From Chthoniobacterales bacterium (lineage in GTDB: Bacteria; Verrucomicrobiota; Verrucomicrobiia; Chthoniobacterales; JACTMZ01), in assembly GCA_021463515.1 (NCBI GenBank), contig JAJTYZ010000112.1, forward strand, positions 1,764-65,763: a DNA stretch of 64,000 nucleotides, written 5' to 3'. Shown here in pieces: positions 2,103 through 16,349 of this stretch. The notes under the pieces are model-generated. The model saw only the letters and a list, made by a program, of their open reading frames with translations, was not told the origin of the DNA and ran no database searches. How positions within the stretch are numbered: position 1 is the stretch's first letter; each line of letters starts with the position of its first letter. The position numbers and the translations under genes are program-made.

Positions 2103-2135
2103 CTCAATCTCCCCCCCACTGACAACTGCCAACTT

Positions 2136-3642: not shown

Positions 3643-4376
3643 GTTGTGACCTCCCTAAGCACCCGCCAAAATCCCTCCCGAATCTTCACCGGGTCAAAAT
3701 CGCGTCTCCCTGCCTCTACAGCCCGCTTCGCCAGCCCAACCCTCAACTCTCCATCTGTCTTCAATCTTTGTAAGCACGCCACCAATTCCTCACGCGTGGT
3801 GCACGAAACCACCCCATTGGGGTAAAAATTGAGAAATTCTAAAACGCTAAAACGTTGCAATAATCCAACCCTTTCAGCATTTCCATTTTTCAGCTTTTCA
3901 GTTTCTTCACCTTTCAGCTTTCCCTCCCCTGTCAACTGCCCACTGCCAACTGCCAACTCCTCTACCCCACGCCCATATCTCACTCCGGTAGCAAACTCCG
4001 GCCCCGACACCACCACGGGCATCCCCAGTCCCAAATACTCCGTTAACTTACTTGGAAAATGCGTACGGTAAAGCATCTCATTATCTCCAGCAGGATTTGA
4101 ATAAGGTAAAATCATCACATCCGCCCGTTCCTGCATCGTGCGCCACATTTCTAGGATATTCATACGATGCGGCATCCATTCCACAACATCCGTCGCCTCC
4201 AATAATCCCTTTAACTTATACGGCGGTCGCGGTGTCGAAGTCAAAACCTTAGCATTCACCTCCCGCAACACCGGAATCAACGCCATCAACGCTTCCCCAT
4301 ATCCATAAGCCACCGATCCTGCATATCCCAGCGTCAAAGTCCCCACCCCATTTCCAGTATTCTCCTCTTGCTTCAT
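3639..4376 (-). CDS. Glycosyltransferase (GT-B/GT4-like), C-terminal half, with an in-frame repeat insertion
   Basis: LGYAGS, ADVMILP, FPSKLTEYLGLGMPVV; same frame as 4452..5093. Confidence 0.75.
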   Translation of the reverse strand: MKQEENTGNGVGTLTLGYAGSVAYGYGEALMALIPVLREVNAKVLTSTPRPPYKLKGLLEATDVVEWMPHRMNILEMWRTMQERADVMILPYSNPAGDNEMLYRTHFPSKLTEYLGLGMPVVVSGPEFATGVRYGRGVEELAVGSGQLTGEGKLKGEETEKLKNGNAERVGLLQRFSVLEFLNFYPNGVVSCTTREELVACLQRLKTDGELRVGLAKRAVEAGRRDFDPVKIREGFWRVLREVTT

Positions 4377-4451
4377 TTCAAAATTTTAGTCTTTCAGCCT
4401 CTCTCTGCCAACTGACTACTGATTCCTGCCAACTCCTCTCCTTCCAGCATT

Positions 4452-5093
4452 TTAGCCTTTCATCATTGCAGCCCGAAGTACTCTCGACATTTCGGGCGAG
4501 CGTGGCTGCAAATCCTCACTCCGATTCGGATACATCACCTCACCCCTCACACTATACCGATTCGCTAGATAATCTTCCATTTCCGGGCTCACGCACAATC
4601 TCCTTGCTGCTGCTCGATATACCCTTCGGTTTTGTTCAAATAATCCCCGCTTCGCCCAAGAAAAAACTTTCTCAAATTCCTCGTTAAGATCGTGGACAAT
4701 CAATACAAGCGGTACACCTAATAATCGTGCTGTCCGTTCCGCCGTCAGAATCCATGGCGTGCTCACCATCACCGCAACAACAATCCTTGGTTTAAAACTT
4801 CCCAATAAACTCAAAATCCTTCGATGTGTTGGCAAAGGAATCAACCCTGTTGCCGCCCATGATCGCTTATACATGCTAAATCGGGTATTATCAAAGCGCG
4901 CCATCGGCATTTTTAACTCACAGTAAGAACACGGTAGCACCTTTGCCCCATGATCTGTAGGCGGTCCCATAACGCACAGCGAATCTATGGGATACTCCGA
5001 AAAAAGGTGATACAACAATATCGCGCCTGCGTTTCGCGTTTGAGGAACTTCACCAGAAAGAATGAGCACATACGGCTTAATCATTGTCGGCAT
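4452..5093 (-). CDS. Glycosyltransferase (GT4-like), N-terminal half of a split gene
   Basis: PLVLIVHD, LCVSPEMEDY..VMYPN typical of a GT4 N-domain; the nucleotide-binding domain is in 3639..4376. Confidence 0.75.
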   Translation of the reverse strand: MPTMIKPYVLILSGEVPQTRNAGAILLYHLFSEYPIDSLCVMGPPTDHGAKVLPCSYCELKMPMARFDNTRFSMYKRSWAATGLIPLPTHRRILSLLGSFKPRIVVAVMVSTPWILTAERTARLLGVPLVLIVHDLNEEFEKVFSWAKRGLFEQNRRVYRAAARRLCVSPEMEDYLANRYSVRGEVMYPNRSEDLQPRSPEMSRVLRAAMMKG

Positions 5094-13331: not shown

Positions 13332-14390
13332 CTACCTACTGTCAACTTCCCTGCTCAGTTTTTCGGCCTTTTCTCCCAGTGCTGCAGCATAAGCTCCTAA
13401 GTCATGCTGACCGGCTCTAATCTCCCTTACAGCTTTCCACATGCCGCGCCTTCGTGACATTGTCATCTCCCATTCCAAACGCCTCAGTCGCCCCCTTCGC
13501 ATAAAGGACATAATCCAGAATCGCCAATCGTTGCGCGGATGCAAGATGCGCCCATTCTCAACAAATCCATGCAATACAGTTGAATAGGCATTGGCCTCCG
13601 CATTTTTCAGCAAATATTCATCAGAGCAACGACCCACAGGGATCAAATGATCCATCAACAACTTCTTAAATACACCCTTTCCATACCCTGATTGACACCC
13701 CACATAAGATAAGTCGGAATCTCCTCCGAAGCCAGCACTTTTTGGAGTCGGATCTAGCAGCCGACGCATCGGATTATCCAAAACACGTTGTCGGTAAAGT
13801 TTTAAGGTCTCCCTCCGTGCACATAGTCCTGCTCCCCATGGGGTGGAATCATGATGCTCAATCACATTGGACCAAATATCCTGTGTTAATTCACGCGCAC
13901 ACAAAGCACCCCGCAGCCAGGTATCAGGTGCCTTATCCGGCTCATCAAACTTTAGTAAAATTTGCCCACCCCAAGTTCCTAGGTGAGGGAAATCCCTAGA
14001 AATTTTGACAACCTCCTCAAGATAATCCGCCCGCAAAGCATTATCCTGATCCACAAAAACAAAGACATCTCCCTTCCCCAACTCAAACCCATACAGTCTG
14101 GAACTCACCAACCCAATCCCCTCCCGCTTCCGGTCCGTCTGCACAAGCCGCGCATTGGGATGCCATCCCAAATCCACAACCACCCTCCCTTCCTCCTCCC
14201 TCACCAACTCATCCCCTGCCCACTGCCCACTGCCAACTGTCAACTTCTTCCTCGACGCATCATCAATAACGATCAGCTCCCATTGATCCTTAGGCAGCGT
14301 CTGACTCATAAGTGCCTCCAGCACAATCCCCAAATGCCGCACTCCAGGATTGCAGCAGGGCATGATAACGGAAATGAAGTTGGCAGACAT
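13332..14390 (-). CDS. Glycosyltransferase family 2 with a short repeat-derived insertion
   Basis: ISVIMPCCNP, IDDAS, FVDQDN, GAGLC, GDSDL. Confidence 0.9.
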   Translation of the reverse strand: MSANFISVIMPCCNPGVRHLGIVLEALMSQTLPKDQWELIVIDDASRKKLTVGSGQWAGDELVREEEGRVVVDLGWHPNARLVQTDRKREGIGLVSSRLYGFELGKGDVFVFVDQDNALRADYLEEVVKISRDFPHLGTWGGQILLKFDEPDKAPDTWLRGALCARELTQDIWSNVIEHHDSTPWGAGLCARRETLKLYRQRVLDNPMRRLLDPTPKSAGFGGDSDLSYVGCQSGYGKGVFKKLLMDHLIPVGRCSDEYLLKNAEANAYSTVLHGFVENGRILHPRNDWRFWIMSFMRRGRLRRLEWEMTMSRRRGMWKAVREIRAGQHDLGAYAAALGEKAEKLSREVDSR

Positions 14391-14407
14391 CAGTAGTCAG
14401 TTGGCAG

Positions 14408-14758
14408 TTATTGCTTCAGTGAGCGTATCAAACCTTGGATCATGGCCGAAAGCTCACGACTATCGCTGATCCAGCGATCAGCAATAGAGTTTTCTAGCAA
14501 ACCGGCTTTTACACCCACAGTTGCTTGTGTCCGAAATTCCCCACATGAACCTCGAGCGTAATCAAGAAACTTCAAGCGATCGGGCAGCGATCTCCGCTCC
14601 ATACCTTCAGCAATATTCGAGGGAATAGAAAGTGCCGAACGTGTTATCTGATCACGAAACCCGAAATCTACACACTTCGCAAGCTTTCTGTAAACGTTAG
14701 CACTCAGCTCTACGGAACGCTTCCAATCCTCCAAATCTTCAAAACCCGCCATATACAA
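14408..14758 (-). CDS. Four helix bundle protein (23S rRNA-IVP / Avd-like family)
   Basis: FEDLEDWKRS..DFGFRDQITRSALSIPSNIAEG..FLDYARGSCGE. Confidence 0.9.
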   Translation of the reverse strand: MYMAGFEDLEDWKRSVELSANVYRKLAKCVDFGFRDQITRSALSIPSNIAEGMERRSLPDRLKFLDYARGSCGEFRTQATVGVKAGLLENSIADRWISDSRELSAMIQGLIRSLKQ

Positions 14759-14790
14759 ATTTCCCCTAGTGACTGTCTGCTGCCCGCTGA

Positions 14791-15708
14791 TTACTGCCTA
14801 CTGCCCAAAATTTCCCTGAAATTTTGGGCATATTCCGCAAGACACACCTTCCAATCCCGCATATAATTAATCCCTCTCCACTCCAACTTCATATTAACCA
14901 GCTTCTCAGAATACGGACGCGGCGCAAAGTACTCCTCCTTCCAATAATCGGAACCCACTTCCGTCACTTTCACATCATCCTCCAGCCCTAGAAGTCTCAC
15001 AAATTCCTTGGCAACATCTAAGCGGCTACAGCTTCCTCCACACACCTGATTATAGAGTCCGTAATGCCCCGTTTCCAAAACTCTAAACATCCCATTGGCA
15101 AAGTCTTTGGTATAAGTCGGCGTCCCCAACTTATCCGCCACCACAAAAAGTTCCTTCGCTCCTCCCTGAATTTGCTTAAAAATTTTATTAACAAACTTCT
15201 TGTCCTTTTTCGGGCCGCCCCCCATCATCCATCCCGCACGAAAAATAAAATACTTGCTCATTTTCCGTTCTACAAAGCACTCTCCATAATATTTCGACTT
15301 GGCATAATGACTCGTTGGCAGAGGCATATCGAAATCTGCATAGAACTCCTGCTCGCCGCCAAAAATTCCGGCGGTACTCACATAAACCATGGTTATCCCG
15401 CGAGATTCCGCCAGCAATGCTGTATTCTCCGGCCCCAGCGCATTCGTCGCCCACGAATCCTCCGGATTTTGCTCGCAATATTCCAAATCCGTCAAAGCCC
15501 CCAAATGAAAAACTACCGTGGGCGCAAACTCATCAAACAGCTTCTTCAACGAGAATAAATCTCGAAAGTCCTGATAAACCAACCAAGGTTCATTCACATC
15601 AATATCCGTCGCCAATACATGTTCATATCTTTGCGTTGCCACCTCAAAAACAGCGGCCCCCAACATCCCCCCAGCCCCCAACAACAATACTTTATCCTGT
15701 GTATTCAT
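14791..15708 (-). CDS. rfbD: dTDP-4-dehydrorhamnose reductase-like SDR
   Basis: GAGGMLG, YAKSK, GTPTYTKD, APRP. Confidence 0.75.
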   Translation of the reverse strand: MNTQDKVLLLGAGGMLGAAVFEVATQRYEHVLATDIDVNEPWLVYQDFRDLFSLKKLFDEFAPTVVFHLGALTDLEYCEQNPEDSWATNALGPENTALLAESRGITMVYVSTAGIFGGEQEFYADFDMPLPTSHYAKSKYYGECFVERKMSKYFIFRAGWMMGGGPKKDKKFVNKIFKQIQGGAKELFVVADKLGTPTYTKDFANGMFRVLETGHYGLYNQVCGGSCSRLDVAKEFVRLLGLEDDVKVTEVGSDYWKEEYFAPRPYSEKLVNMKLEWRGINYMRDWKVCLAEYAQNFREILGSRQ

Positions 15709-15794: not shown

Positions 15795-16349
15795 CTACTG
15801 ACTCCTGCCAACTATCCCTTCCCCCAAACTCCCTCCCCTCCCATCCTTTTCCGAAACAACCGGCTCTCCTTTAAGTGGCCACTGAATGCCTAATGATTTA
15901 TCGTTCCAGAGAATGCAACATTCGTAAGATGGCGAATAAAACTCCGTAGTTTTATAGGCAACATCGGCAAACTCAGAGAGCACATAAAATCCATGCGCAA
16001 AACCTTCCGGAATCCACAACATCTCTTGCGCCTCATCAGTTAATACCTCACCCACCCACTTTCCATAGGTCGCAGATTCAGGACGAATATCCACAGCGAC
16101 ATCGAAAATCTTCCCCCGCATCACCGTGATCAGTTTTGCCTGAGCCTTGGGTTCCACTTGATAATGCAATCCCCGCAAAACATTCCTTTTCGAACGCGAA
16201 TGATTATCCTGCACAAACTCTACCTGACGATTCAATACTTCATTTAACTTCAAGCGATTCCAAGATTCCAAAAAGAACCCTCGCTCATCACGAAAAATTT
16301 TCGGCTTAAGCAACATCACACCATCTAGCTTCGTTTGAATTACTTCCAT
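15795..16349 (-). CDS. rfbC: dTDP-4-dehydrorhamnose 3,5-epimerase
   Basis: DERGFFLES, FVQDNHSRS, LRGLHYQ, GFAHGF. Confidence 0.95.
   Translation of the reverse strand: MEVIQTKLDGVMLLKPKIFRDERGFFLESWNRLKLNEVLNRQVEFVQDNHSRSKRNVLRGLHYQVEPKAQAKLITVMRGKIFDVAVDIRPESATYGKWVGEVLTDEAQEMLWIPEGFAHGFYVLSEFADVAYKTTEFYSPSYECCILWNDKSLGIQWPLKGEPVVSEKDGRGGSLGEGIVGRSQ

What the first reader, a model, noticed from the sequence alone, without database searches (positions are those of the whole stretch)
14378..14810. Four-helix cassette 1: the stem places the upstream stop opposite the downstream start
Seen: the upstream arm GGGCAGTAGGCAG-TAA-TCAGCGGGCAG contains the rfbD-like stop (14791-14793). The downstream arm CTGCCAACTGACTACTG-ATG-TCTGCCAACT begins right after the four-helix stop and contains the GT2 start (14388-14390). 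When the arms pair, stop and start lie within about 6 nt across the helix, with the 116-codon gene in the loop. Inference: an insertion that preserves translational coupling of its host operon, analogous to rRNA IVS stems but in mRNA.
Basis: partly seen in the sequence, partly recalled or inferred. Interest (0 to 1): 0.85.

Follow-up and report, generated by a model that had tools for sequence, protein, structure and literature searches.

The report
IVS-type four-helix gene cassette in operon
A small four-helix-bundle gene of the kind known from intervening sequences in 23S ribosomal RNA sits here between two sugar-pathway genes, bracketed by two complementary runs of 7-base repeats that can pair and bring the neighbours' stop and start codons together; the same design recurs in many bacterial phyla and seems largely undescribed.

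Summary
On the minus strand an rmlD-like gene, a PF05635/TIGR02436 four-helix gene and a GT2 gene follow one another. They hold the rmlD stop (14791-14793) and the GT2 start (14388-14390).

The arms are opposed arrays of tandem heptamers, not simple inverted repeats. They can form about 25 bp in five short helices, which puts stop and start about 5 nt apart across the helix. This stem is weak-to-moderate here: dG -37.6, 0/500 and 5/1000 shuffles, but z only 2.0 by strict Watson-Crick alignment.

The design is general. Complementary flanks occur in 87 of 111 PF05635 loci from many phyla, against 3/300 and 0/96 controls. Period 7 is specific. The 5' arm is G-rich in 80/87. An upstream frame ends within 20 nt of the arm in 66/87 (control 1/82).

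At sdhA|sdhB, relatives show occupied sites of 445-493 nt and empty sites (spacers of -4 to 61 nt, 2-7 nt within the genus). That cassette protein is vertically inherited under purifying selection.

The closest known element is the S23p-encoding 23S rRNA IVS, for example in Coxiella, which has heptamers and an RNase III-cut stem. The translational-coupling function is untested. No RNA data were available.

The parts
14791..15708 (-). Upstream host gene, rmlD-like (dTDP-4-dehydrorhamnose reductase family). Its last four codons (GSRQ) and its stop TAA 14793-14791 lie inside the 5' heptamer array.
   Evidence: ORF. PF04321 RmlD_sub_bind 5.3e-51. C-termini of relatives.
14772..14806 (-). 5' arm: five tandem heptamers (GGGCAGT AGGCAGT AATCAGC GGGCAGC AGACAGT), G-rich on the sense strand. 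It contains TAG and TAA.
   Evidence: Sequence. Lag-7 self-match 14/21. Pairs with the 3' arm.
14408..14752 (-). Four-helix-bundle gene (S23p / 23S rRNA IVS protein family), 114 aa from ATG 14752 (116 aa from TTG 14758), stop TAA 14410-14408. Intact.
   Evidence: PF05635 2e-27. NF008912 145.9 bits (cut-off 124) and TIGR02436 98 bits. PDB 2gsc_A 1.6e-14. 81% identical to the G012 copy.
14376..14409 (-). 3' arm: tandem heptamers AACTGCC AACTGAC TACTGAT GTCTGCC AACTTC, C/A-rich on the sense strand. It contains the GT2 start ATG 14390-14388 and the next three codons.
   Evidence: Sequence. Pairing (I6, I15). The N-terminus reads MSAN-FISVIMPCCN here and MP-FISVIMPCCN in G032.
13332..14390 (-). Downstream host gene, family-2 glycosyltransferase.
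   Evidence: ORF. PF00535 1.6e-11.
14216..14247 (-). In-frame G-rich heptamer array inside GT2 (sense: GTTGACA GTTGGCA GTGGGCA GTGGGCA). It offers an alternative pairing partner to the 3' arm, with a 128-nt loop that holds the first 47 GT2 codons.
   Evidence: I1: 32 nt, 75% complementary. dG -40.7, 3/500 shuffles. The segment is absent in G032 and longer in G035.
29415..29897 (-). Second cassette of the window, with the same design. 5' array GGTTCTT-type at 29838-29897, holding the stop TAG 29876-29874 of a 447-aa upstream ORF. PF05635 pseudogene (in-frame TAG plus a frame break) at 29470-29832. 3' array CCAAGAA-type at 29420-29462. Downstream ATG at 29417-29415.
   Evidence: arm duplex -72.1 kcal/mol.

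Best explanation
The interval is one complete IVS-type cassette. It is a PF05635/TIGR02436 four-helix-bundle gene (the S23p family first found in 23S rRNA intervening sequences) bracketed by two complementary arrays of tandem heptamers. It is wedged into the stop|start junction of two co-directional genes (rmlD-like, GT2) of a polysaccharide locus. The arrays themselves supply the upstream gene's last codons and stop, and the downstream gene's start.

Shown: the anatomy; its recurrence across phyla with a different heptamer at each locus; its fixed polarity (G-rich 5' arm, C/A-rich 3' arm); occupied and empty alleles in relatives; long vertical inheritance of one such cassette under purifying selection; and relocation of this cassette lineage as a unit (ORF plus arms).

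Inferred mechanism: in the polycistronic transcript the arms pair into a long imperfect stem. The stem loops the inserted gene out and restores the original closeness of the host stop and start. As in the rRNA copies of the family, the stem is most likely an RNase III substrate. The insert would then be cut out of, or insulated from, the host RNA, and the downstream gene would be expressed from the remaining short C/A-rich heptamer leader. Stop/start juxtaposition would follow from this design and may additionally allow coupled re-initiation.
For: Family and anatomy.

Stem at this locus: dG -37.6, 5/1000 and 0/500 shuffles. It is also present in the whole-region MFE.

Generality:
- All 3 heptamer-flanked PF05635 loci of this genome share the design.
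- 87/111 loci (relatives plus 80 loci from many phyla) have complementary flanks at z>=4, against 3/300 random pseudo-cassettes and 0/96 displaced flanks.
- Period 7 shows in 95/222 flanks; periods 4-6 and 9-12 in 0-1, period 8 in 12; control 2/1000.
- The 5' heptamer equals the reverse complement of the 3' heptamer within 1 mismatch in 28/39 periodic cassettes, although heptamers differ between loci.
- The 5' arm is G-rich in 80/87.
- Median arm length is 28 nt, and 65/87 arms are 22 nt or longer.

Junction geometry: an upstream frame ends within 20 nt of the arm in 66/87 (control 1/82), and a downstream ORF starts within -10..+25 nt in 42/87.

Insertion:
- Among the 30 sdhA|sdhB loci, 5 are occupied; one search measures 445-493 nt in 10 occupied genomes.
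- The other 25 are empty, with spacers of -4 to 61 nt. Three species of the same genus have spacers of 2-7 nt.
- RNAalifold puts a 20-bp stem starting 2 nt after the stop and ending 5-8 nt before the ATG in all 10.

The arms persist without the protein: cassette 2 is a pseudogene with a -72 kcal/mol stem.

Precedent: in the Coxiella 23S IVS of the same family, a 28-bp terminal stem is cut mid-stem by RNase III (in vitro and by RACE), at the first of 3 tandem heptamers (PMC4990558, passages).

Untranslated setting: one copy lies between two tRNA genes.

This genome has an RNase III homologue. The cassette contains no terminator-like site.
Against: No RNA evidence at all: no RNA run holds the stretch, and the contigs laid say nothing about RNA ends.

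This copy's stem is interrupted: five helices of 4-6 bp with internal loops, and z only 2.0 by Watson-Crick alignment. It may therefore be a poor RNase III substrate.

The 3' arm pairs at least as well with the array inside GT2.

Non-Watson-Crick positions show no excess of G:U over A:C on the sense strand (60 vs 73). Selection at the RNA level is therefore not demonstrated, and DNA-level complementarity explains the arms equally well.

Orthologous sdh arms are mostly invariant: only 2 of the 20 stem pairs show a change on both sides.

Cleavage would break coupling between genes whose empty-site spacers are only -4 to 8 nt in many relatives.

The cassette protein is under strong purifying selection (dN/dS 0.063). 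A pure 'harmless insertion' model does not explain that.
Confidence: 0.4

Rival explanations
1. The stem exists to keep the host operon translationally coupled. A ribosome ending at the rmlD stop at the base of the helix opens the lower stem, frees the 3' arm that holds the GT2 start, and re-initiates there (or first at the cassette ORF). The RNA is not cut.
For: The stop and start lie inside the arms, 4-6 nt apart across the helix.

The same holds for cassette 2 and the sdh cassettes. Generally, the median stop is 5 nt before the arm and the median start 5 nt after it.

Empty sdhA|sdhB sites are tightly coupled junctions (-4 to 8 nt in many relatives).

5' arms carry stops in all three frames more often than column-permuted arrays (31/87 vs 18.4 +/- 3.1; 0/200 permutations reach it).

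SD-like motifs are rare upstream of long ORFs here (126/999, with noisy start calls).
Against: Tight geometry is expected from any insertion into a spacer of a few bases, so it does not discriminate between models.

The same arms flank copies in untranslated RNA (tRNA spacer; 23S and 16S rRNA per PMC4990558 and preprint 10.1101/2024.02.27.582315, passages).

There is no wobble signature.

Only 42/87 loci have a co-directional downstream ORF starting next to the arm.

No translation data exist.
Confidence: 0.25
2. A DNA-level feature. The arrays are the terminal inverted repeats or hairpin ends of a mobile cassette, used for insertion into gene junctions and for precise loss. Pairing in RNA is incidental.
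For: ORF and arms move as a unit. The same lineage (81% and 88% protein identity, same GGCAGTA/CTGCCAA heptamers) sits in other junctions in G012 and G006, while the rmlD|GT2 junction of G035 and G032 holds a 42%-identical lineage with other arms.

Protein similarity tracks heptamer similarity (0/2000 permutations; 4/2000 without genus orthologues).

Occupancy of sdhA|sdhB is patchy, with clean empty sites inside one genus.

Mismatches are symmetric between strands.

The G-rich-inward polarity belongs to the palindrome itself.

The older literature proposed IVSs as transposition remnants or mobile elements (cited in PMC4990558, passage).
Against: No transposase or recombinase lies in the cassette, and PF05635 has no known catalytic motif.

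No target duplication is visible at the sdh junctions.

The sdh cassette has stayed in place since before three families of the order split (identity tracks sdhB, r 0.90). Movement is therefore rare.

The arms stay intact over that whole time, which argues for a continuing function.
Confidence: 0.2
3. A protein-repeat system. The pentameric four-helix protein binds the tandem heptamers, as RNA or single-stranded DNA, at its own flanks and at the many dispersed arrays of the same heptamer. It acts either as a post-transcriptional regulator of the genes behind those arrays or as the maintenance factor of the repeats, analogous to RAYT/REPIN.
For: Heptamers matching the cassette arms are dispersed in the same genomes as solo arrays just upstream of start codons and as ORF-less inverted pairs.

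TTGAG-type arrays: 36-39 hits in G005, G007, G012 and G001, with reversed-pattern controls at 0-1. There are 0 hits in G039, G026 and G052, which lack that cassette.

ACTGA-type arrays: 91 hits in G024, whose cassette has these arms, and 0 in G062 and G085.

Strong purifying selection acts on the protein.

The family forms homopentameric toroids (Lin 2006 as cited in PMC4990558; PDB 2gsc has 5 chains).

MacGregor 2015 (PMC4679880, passages) proposed an unknown regulator binding TAACTGA arrays upstream of start codons.
Against: G032 has the most TTGAG arrays (57 hits) but no close homologue of the cognate protein (best 43% identity). G008 has the cassette but only 8 hits.

Close proteins can have different heptamers (L041 vs L038).

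Co-occurrence among relatives is not independent evidence.

No binding data exist, and no complex prediction was run.
Confidence: 0.13
4. Chance complementarity of two low-complexity intergenic stretches.
For: This copy is weak by strict alignment (z 2.0).
Against: 0/500 and 5/1000 shuffles reach the duplex energy. The same design occurs at 87/111 homologous loci, against 3/300 and 0/96 controls.
Confidence: 0.02

Closest known systems
S23p-encoding intervening sequences (IVS) of 23S rRNA (Leptospira, Coxiella burnetii, Xanthomonas; Ralph & McClelland 1993 recalled and as cited; Warrier et al. 2016, PMC4990558, passages read)
   Same: Same protein family (PF05635). The ORF is in the sense of the host transcript. 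Terminal complementary arms form a stem (28 bp in Coxiella). Tandem heptamers lie in the 5' arm (GACAGAT x3 in Coxiella, purine- and G-rich as here), with variable copy number. The ORF can decay while the arms persist.
   Different: Here the host RNA is a protein-coding operon, not rRNA; there are no Rfam hits in the window. The arms abut or overlap a stop and a start codon. The protein is intact and, in the sdh lineage, under purifying selection. RNase III cleavage has not been shown for mRNA-borne copies.
Intergenic TAACTGA direct heptamer repeats upstream of start codons (MacGregor 2015, PMC4679880, abstract and passages read); cyanobacterial STRR heptamers (recalled)
   Same: Tandem heptamers in 'forward' orientation lie a few bases upstream of start codons, and some overlap the end of the upstream ORF. 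The finding's 3' arm (AACTGAC TACTGAT) and the solo array at G000 C11:5132 are TAACTGA-like. Indels come in steps of 7.
   Different: That work describes solo direct repeats of one heptamer. It does not mention four-helix genes or 23S ('four helix' 0 and '23S' 0 occurrences). Here each array has an opposed partner across a PF05635 gene, and the heptamers differ by locus.
REP/REPIN elements and their RAYT genes (recalled: Nunvar 2010; Bertels & Rainey 2011)
   Same: A single, vertically inherited gene is flanked by inverted copies of a short repeat. That repeat is also dispersed through the genome as hairpin-forming inverted pairs. Different paralogues go with different repeats.
   Different: The gene is not a Y1/HUH transposase. 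The repeats are tandem heptamer arrays, not 20-35 nt palindromes. The gene-repeat link fails in G032.
Avd of diversity-generating retroelements
   Same: A distant member of the same fold and family. NF033474 scores 25 bits against a cut-off of 80 for the sdh-cassette protein and gives no hit for the window protein. It is a pentameric barrel that binds nucleic acid and reverse transcriptase (recalled).
   Different: No reverse transcriptase lies next to the cassettes; RVT_1 occurs only on contigs C51 and C110. There is no template/variable repeat pair.

Membership tests
PF05635 / TIGR02436 four-helix-bundle (23S rRNA IVS protein, S23p) family | Profile match above the curated cut-off over the full domain | tested here: met
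   PF05635 95.9 bits (cut-off 33.8), positions 1-106/106. TIGR02436 98.1 bits (cut-off 24). NF008912 145.9 bits (cut-off 124).
PF05635 / TIGR02436 four-helix-bundle (23S rRNA IVS protein, S23p) family | Sequence relative with a solved four-helix, homopentameric structure | tested here: met
   2gsc_A (XCC0516), E 1.6e-14, 5 chains in the entry. No structure was predicted for this protein itself.
S23p-type IVS element of rRNA | Lies inside a 23S (or 16S) rRNA gene helix | tested here: not met
   No Rfam family hit anywhere in the 64-kb window. The flanks are protein-coding genes.
S23p-type IVS element of rRNA | S23p ORF in the sense of the host transcript, enclosed by complementary termini that form a stem | tested here: met
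S23p-type IVS element of rRNA | Tandem heptamers in the 5' arm (described for Coxiella only) | tested here: met
   Five units at 14806-14772. Lag-7 match 14/21 against 13/3000 controls.
S23p-type IVS element of rRNA | Excision by RNase III cleavage within the stem | not testable with these tools
   An RNase III homologue is present, but no RNA reads were available.
RAYT/REPIN system | The flanked gene is a Y1 (HUH) transposase | tested here: not met
   The only Pfam hit of the gene is PF05635.
RAYT/REPIN system | The flanking repeat is dispersed in the genome as inverted pairs and is tied to the presence of the gene | tested here: inconclusive
   Dispersed arrays and hairpins exist. G032 has arrays without a close cognate gene.
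Diversity-generating retroelement (Avd) | Adjacent reverse transcriptase and a TR/VR repeat pair; Avd-level profile match | tested here: not met
   The Avd model gives no hit for the window protein. RVT_1 occurs only on other contigs.
TAACTGA-type intergenic heptamer repeats | Tandem heptamers in forward orientation within a few nt of a downstream start codon | tested here: met
   The 3' arm 14409-14376 holds the GT2 ATG. Solo arrays lie 2-12 nt before ATGs elsewhere in the genome.

The most novel reading that the evidence does not exclude
PF05635 four-helix proteins and tandem-heptamer arrays form one pan-bacterial system. Each pentameric protein would recognise its own heptamer. Its gene is kept between two opposed arrays of that heptamer. 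The same heptamer is spread through the genome as leaders directly upstream of start codons and as ORF-less hairpins. The protein would then be the long-sought partner of the 'TAACTGA-type' repeats, acting as a post-transcriptional regulator or a repeat-maintenance factor. The 23S rRNA IVSs would be just one landing place of such cassettes. This would give a function to a large family that has had none since 1993.
Probability: 0.15. Interest if true: 0.9.

Novelty: new variant of a known kind. Interest (0 to 1): 0.7.

Why it matters
The S23p / four-helix-bundle family is very widespread. The family has had no assigned function since its discovery inside 23S rRNA intervening sequences.

This work shows that the rRNA IVS is a special case of a general cassette: gene plus opposed heptamer arrays. 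The cassette sits exactly in stop|start junctions of operons, can be lost cleanly, relocates as a unit, and can persist under purifying selection across families of an order.

That turns three separate curiosities into one testable problem: rRNA IVSs, heptamer repeats upstream of start codons, and 'four helix bundle' genes scattered through polysaccharide loci. It also offers natural material for studying how an operon tolerates a 450-nt insertion between tightly coupled cistrons. For annotation, it explains gene ends and starts that lie in repeat arrays, and contig breaks at such arrays.

Tried and rejected

2. RNA evidence. The look-up of sequencing runs listed no RNA holder for the stretch. 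Laying four runs gave only short contigs that break at the arrays, with no joints, so nothing about RNA ends or cassette-less forms.

3. Wobble test. I expected an excess of G:U over A:C at non-Watson-Crick arm positions if the sense RNA is under selection. I found 60 vs 73, so no support.

4. Covariation within the orthologous sdh cassettes. The arms are nearly invariant, so the test has little power.

5. Strict one-protein-one-heptamer link. It fails for G032.

6. rRNA context. None of the 14 loci scanned lies in rRNA. One lies between tRNAs.

7. C/A-rich leaders as a general rule of this genome. Base composition upstream of 999 long ORFs is flat, though start calls are noisy, so I dropped the claim.

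8. No promoter of note (2 weak consensus matches) and no terminator in or next to the cassette.

9. DGR reading rejected.

10. My first heptamer detector was too strict and found only 10 arrays. I replaced it with TRF lists.

11. In one search the 'longest ORF' rule picked wrong frames. redid the analysis with the domain frame. L021 (no motif match) and L017 (sdhB cut by the contig end) were dropped from the identity and dN/dS tables, and dS is near saturation.

12. Literature. Searches found no paper describing four-helix genes outside rRNA as flanked by opposed heptamer arrays. The library lacks most subscription journals, and supplements were not seen. They may hold repeat tables that bear on this, for example those of PMC4679880.

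13. Complex prediction, structure prediction, the protein atlas and the large protein searches were not used.


Full report
**What is at the coordinates.**

The region is a minus-strand gene row of a polysaccharide locus. It reads, in order:
- dTDP-sugar epimerase, 15795-16349;
- an rmlD-like reductase, 14791-15708;
- a 114-116-codon gene, 14408-14758;
- a family-2 glycosyltransferase, 13332-14390;
- further transferase and methyltransferase genes.

The small gene is a full-length member of PF05635 (23S rRNA intervening-sequence protein), E 2e-27. It also matches NCBIfam TIGR02436 'four helix bundle protein' and NF008912 above its cut-off. Its nearest solved relative is XCC0516 of Xanthomonas, PDB 2gsc, E 1.6e-14.

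- 5' arm: GGGCAGT AGGCAGT AATCAGC GGGCAGC AGACAGT, 14806-14772;
- 3' arm: the opposed AACTGCC AACTGAC TACTGAT GTCTGCC AACTTC, 14409-14376.

**Does the stem form on paper, and beyond chance?**

RNAduplex pairs 14816-14779 with 14408-14369 in 25 base pairs split over five helices, dG -37.6 kcal/mol. Two bases of the stop pair with 14394-14395. The ATG lies in the next internal loop, so the two codons are 4-6 nt apart across the helix.

The evidence on chance is mixed:
- 5 of 1000 shuffles (wide flanks) and 0 of 500 (tight flanks) do as well.
- The 471-nt fold also closes the arms (z -2.47).
- By strict Watson-Crick local alignment this copy is weak (z 2.0).
- The 3' arm pairs at least as well (-40.7; 3/500) with a third, G-rich array lying in frame inside GT2 at 14216-14247.

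**The design is general.**

This incomplete genome (2.1 Mb, 140 contigs, 65.65% complete) has five or six PF05635 loci. Three have readable flanks on both sides, and all three show the same design, each with its own heptamer:
- the finding;
- a pseudogene copy at window 29415-29897, with GGTTCTT / CCAAGAA arms;
- a copy between sdhA- and sdhB-like genes on another contig, with GTTGAGG / CCTCAAC arms.

I then collected 35 loci from 26 of 31 related genomes and 80 loci from many phyla. The phyla include Verrucomicrobiota, Planctomycetota, Bacteroidota, Acidobacteriota, Patescibacteria, Elusimicrobiota, Omnitrophota and Deinococcus.

Of 111 cassettes with both flanks on the contig:
- 87 have complementary flanks at z>=4, against 3 of 300 random pseudo-cassettes and 0 of 96 flanks displaced by 300 nt.
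- Self-similarity at lag 7 reaches 16/21 in 95 of 222 flanks. Period 8 gives 12 and periods 4-6 and 9-12 give 0-1. Control windows give 2 of 1000.
- In 28 of 39 clearly periodic cassettes the 5' heptamer is the reverse complement of the 3' heptamer within one mismatch, although the heptamer differs from locus to locus.
- The 5' arm is G-rich on the sense strand in 80 of 87, and the 3' arm C-rich in 82 of 87. This polarity belongs to the palindrome itself, because it reads the same from either strand.
- 5' arms carry stop codons in all three frames in 31 of 87, against 18.4 +/- 3.1 in column-permuted arrays (0/200 permutations reach it).

**Geometry relative to the neighbours.**

In 66 of the 87, a same-strand frame of at least 90 codons ends within 20 nt of the 5' end of the arm (median 5 nt before it). 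A control point 300 nt upstream gives 1 of 82. In 21 the stop lies inside the arm. In 42 of the 87, a co-directional ORF starts between 10 nt before and 25 nt after the 3' end of the arm (median 5 nt after it).

The window's second cassette has its upstream stop inside the 5' array and the downstream ATG 4 nt after the 3' array.

At the finding's own site the arrays have taken over the gene ends:
- rmlD ends ...GSRQ* within the array.
- GT2 begins MSAN-FISVIMPCCN here, where a relative has MP-FISVIMPCCN.

**It is an insertion, and an old, selected one.**

At the sdhA|sdhB junction, one search finds 5 of its 30 loci occupied, with the stop fused to the first heptamer and the last heptamer 3-5 nt from the ATG. 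One search measures 445-493 nt between the codons in 10 occupied genomes (these five plus five). The other 25 loci are empty, with spacers of -4 to 61 nt. They include three species of the same genus with TAA-ctctccc-ATG, TAA-cc-ATG and TAG-tc-ATG.

RNAalifold on the 10 occupied sites predicts a 20-bp outer stem of 6+6+4+4 pairs, with one unpaired base per heptamer. The stem starts 2 nt after the stop and ends 5-8 nt before the ATG, so folding restores about the spacing of an empty site.

The cassette protein's pairwise identity tracks that of sdhB (r 0.90; 55-87% against 67-95%). Its dN/dS within the genus is 0.063, against 0.044 for sdhB (dS near saturation). That cassette therefore predates the split of three families of the order, has been lost cleanly several times or was never gained in some lines, and encodes a protein the cells keep.

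**The cassette moves as a unit.**

The finding's own lineage recurs in two other species of the genus, with the same GGCAGTA/CTGCCAA arms:
- in G012 (protein 81% identical), before a different GT2 (37% local identity);
- in G006 (88% over the N-terminal part, frameshifted), between a membrane protein and another gene.

The orthologous rmlD|GT2 junction of G035 and G032, by contrast, is occupied by a 42%-identical lineage with different arms. Across the whole sample, protein similarity tracks heptamer similarity (0/2000 permutations; 4/2000 after dropping genus orthologues).

**What is known.**

The family was named for ORFs inside 23S rRNA intervening sequences. For the Coxiella IVS, passages of Warrier et al. 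2016 (PMC4990558) describe:
- terminal inverted repeats forming a 28-bp stem;
- RNase III cleavage in the middle of that stem, in vitro and by RACE;
- three tandem heptamers (GACAGAT) plus a degenerate fourth upstream of the S23p start, with copy number varying among strains;
- decay of the ORF;
- the homopentameric toroid structure of the Xanthomonas protein (Lin 2006, as cited there).

A preprint on CPR bacteria (10.1101/2024.02.27.582315, passage) finds the domain in both 16S and 23S insertions.

Separately, MacGregor 2015 (PMC4679880, abstract and passages) described TAACTGA heptamer repeats directly upstream of start codons in Beggiatoaceae, cyanobacteria and Bacteroidetes. That paper proposed an unknown post-transcriptional regulator and does not mention four-helix genes or 23S.

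My six literature searches found no description of the general cassette outside rRNA. The library is incomplete and supplements were closed.

**Mechanism.**

The shown facts are the anatomy, polarity, junction placement, insertion/empty alleles, conservation and relocation.

The mechanism is inferred. I favour an RNA-level role of the stem (confidence 0.4). It would loop out the insert and, by homology with the rRNA copies, be cut by RNase III. This genome has an RNase III homologue. The downstream gene would be left with a short C/A-rich heptamer leader of the kind that precedes other genes here as solo arrays, for example at groES|groEL.

Two observations support a role not tied to translation or to the protein. 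One copy sits between two tRNA genes. The arms also persist around a pseudogene.

The following count against this reading, or at least do not support it:
- no RNA data;
- no G:U over A:C bias (60 vs 73);
- little covariation within orthologues;
- the interrupted stem at this locus;
- strong selection on the protein, which an 'innocuous insert' model leaves unexplained.

A DNA-level mobile-element reading (0.2) and a protein-repeat system (0.13) remain open.

**The protein-repeat lead.**

Arrays of the cassette heptamers are dispersed:
- TTGAG-type triple units give 36-39 hits in four genus members with the sdh cassette, and 8 in a fifth. Reversed-pattern controls give 0-1.
- They give 0 in three genomes without the cassette, but 57 in G032 and 6 in G034, which also lack it.
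- G032 has no close homologue of the cognate protein (best 43% identity).
- ACTGA-type arrays give 91 hits in G024, whose cassette has these arms. They give 0, 0, 16 and 9 in four other genomes of the order.

Many hits are opposed pairs 40-370 nt apart, G-rich arm first, without an ORF. This resembles REPIN/RAYT systems, but the link is not strict, and relatives are not independent samples.

**Verdict.**

The IVS analogy is supported by homology. The coupling function is unproven. The element is a new variant of a known kind: an mRNA-borne, junction-filling form of the S23p IVS cassette. It is much more general than the literature I could search suggests.

Noticed in passing
window 29415-29897 (-): A second cassette of the same design. 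The PF05635 gene is a pseudogene (in-frame TAG and a frame break), yet it keeps the strongest arms in the genome (GGTTCTT/CCAAGAA, duplex -72.1 kcal/mol). The upstream 447-aa ORF stops inside the 5' array, and the downstream 326-aa ORF starts 4 nt after the 3' array.
   Followed up: yes
window 14216-14247 (-), inside GT2: An in-frame G-rich heptamer array translated as a low-complexity loop after the DDAS motif. It is absent in G032 and much longer in G035 (L119). The period is not a multiple of 3, so a one-unit change would shift the frame (possible phase variation). It also competes for pairing with the 3' arm.
   Followed up: partly
window 3929-3958 and 2118-2134 (+): Solo CTGCCAA-type arrays with the same heptamer as the finding's 3' arm and no four-helix gene nearby. 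One sequencing contig joined the GT2-internal array to the flanks of the 3929 locus (loose ends), which illustrates assembly confusion at these repeats.
   Followed up: partly
G000 C59:8237-8270; C11:5132-5169; C89:10304-10323; C104:3965-3991 (-); C20:1359-1390: Solo C/A-rich heptamer arrays fill stop-to-ATG spacers and end 2-12 nt before the downstream start. Examples include a groES|groEL-like junction and a TAACTGA-like array on C11. They resemble the repeats described by MacGregor 2015.
   Followed up: partly
G000 C79:12520-12600; also G005, G007, G012, G001, G032, G024: ORF-less hairpins made of two opposed heptamer arrays, G-rich arm first, 30-130 nt apart. They look like miniature, gene-less versions of the cassette and are reminiscent of REPINs.
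   Followed up: partly
G000 C37:2330-3034 (L006): A longer relative (235-aa open frame; 219 aa were scanned) with the TIGR04258 'four helix bundle suffix' domain. It is flanked not by opposed heptamers but by a direct repeat of about 90 nt that itself contains a hairpin.
   Followed up: no
G000 C23:2210-3636: A run of small ORFs (82-168 aa), each separated from the next by an AACCAAG/AACCAAA-type heptamer array. The ORFs were not identified.
   Followed up: no
G000 C74:855-1373: A ~75-aa ORF on the minus strand lies between arrays of two different heptamers (GTTACTC-type, and an 11-unit GGTGATC array), on a 1.5-kb contig.
   Followed up: no
G012 C33:87566-107845; G006 C2:5826-17994: Several PF05635 genes are clustered within 12-20 kb: four in G012 and three in G006. 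As in this window, these look like glycan-synthesis loci, so cassettes seem concentrated between glycosyltransferase genes. The locus type was not verified.
   Followed up: no
L109:1369-2130 (Omnitrophota MAG): A cassette with AGTTCAC-type arms lies between two tRNA genes (tRNAs at 1369-1443 and 2057-2130).
   Followed up: yes
G032 C47:4667-4692: In the species whose sdhA|sdhB site is empty, a TTGAG-type array lies directly after the sdhB stop (sdhB at 3901-4656).
   Followed up: no
literature: PMC10910872, figure legend: A large CRISPR survey lists '23S rRNA IVP' among domains linked to CRISPR arrays. The tandem heptamer arrays beside these genes might have been read as arrays; this was not checked.
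   Followed up: no
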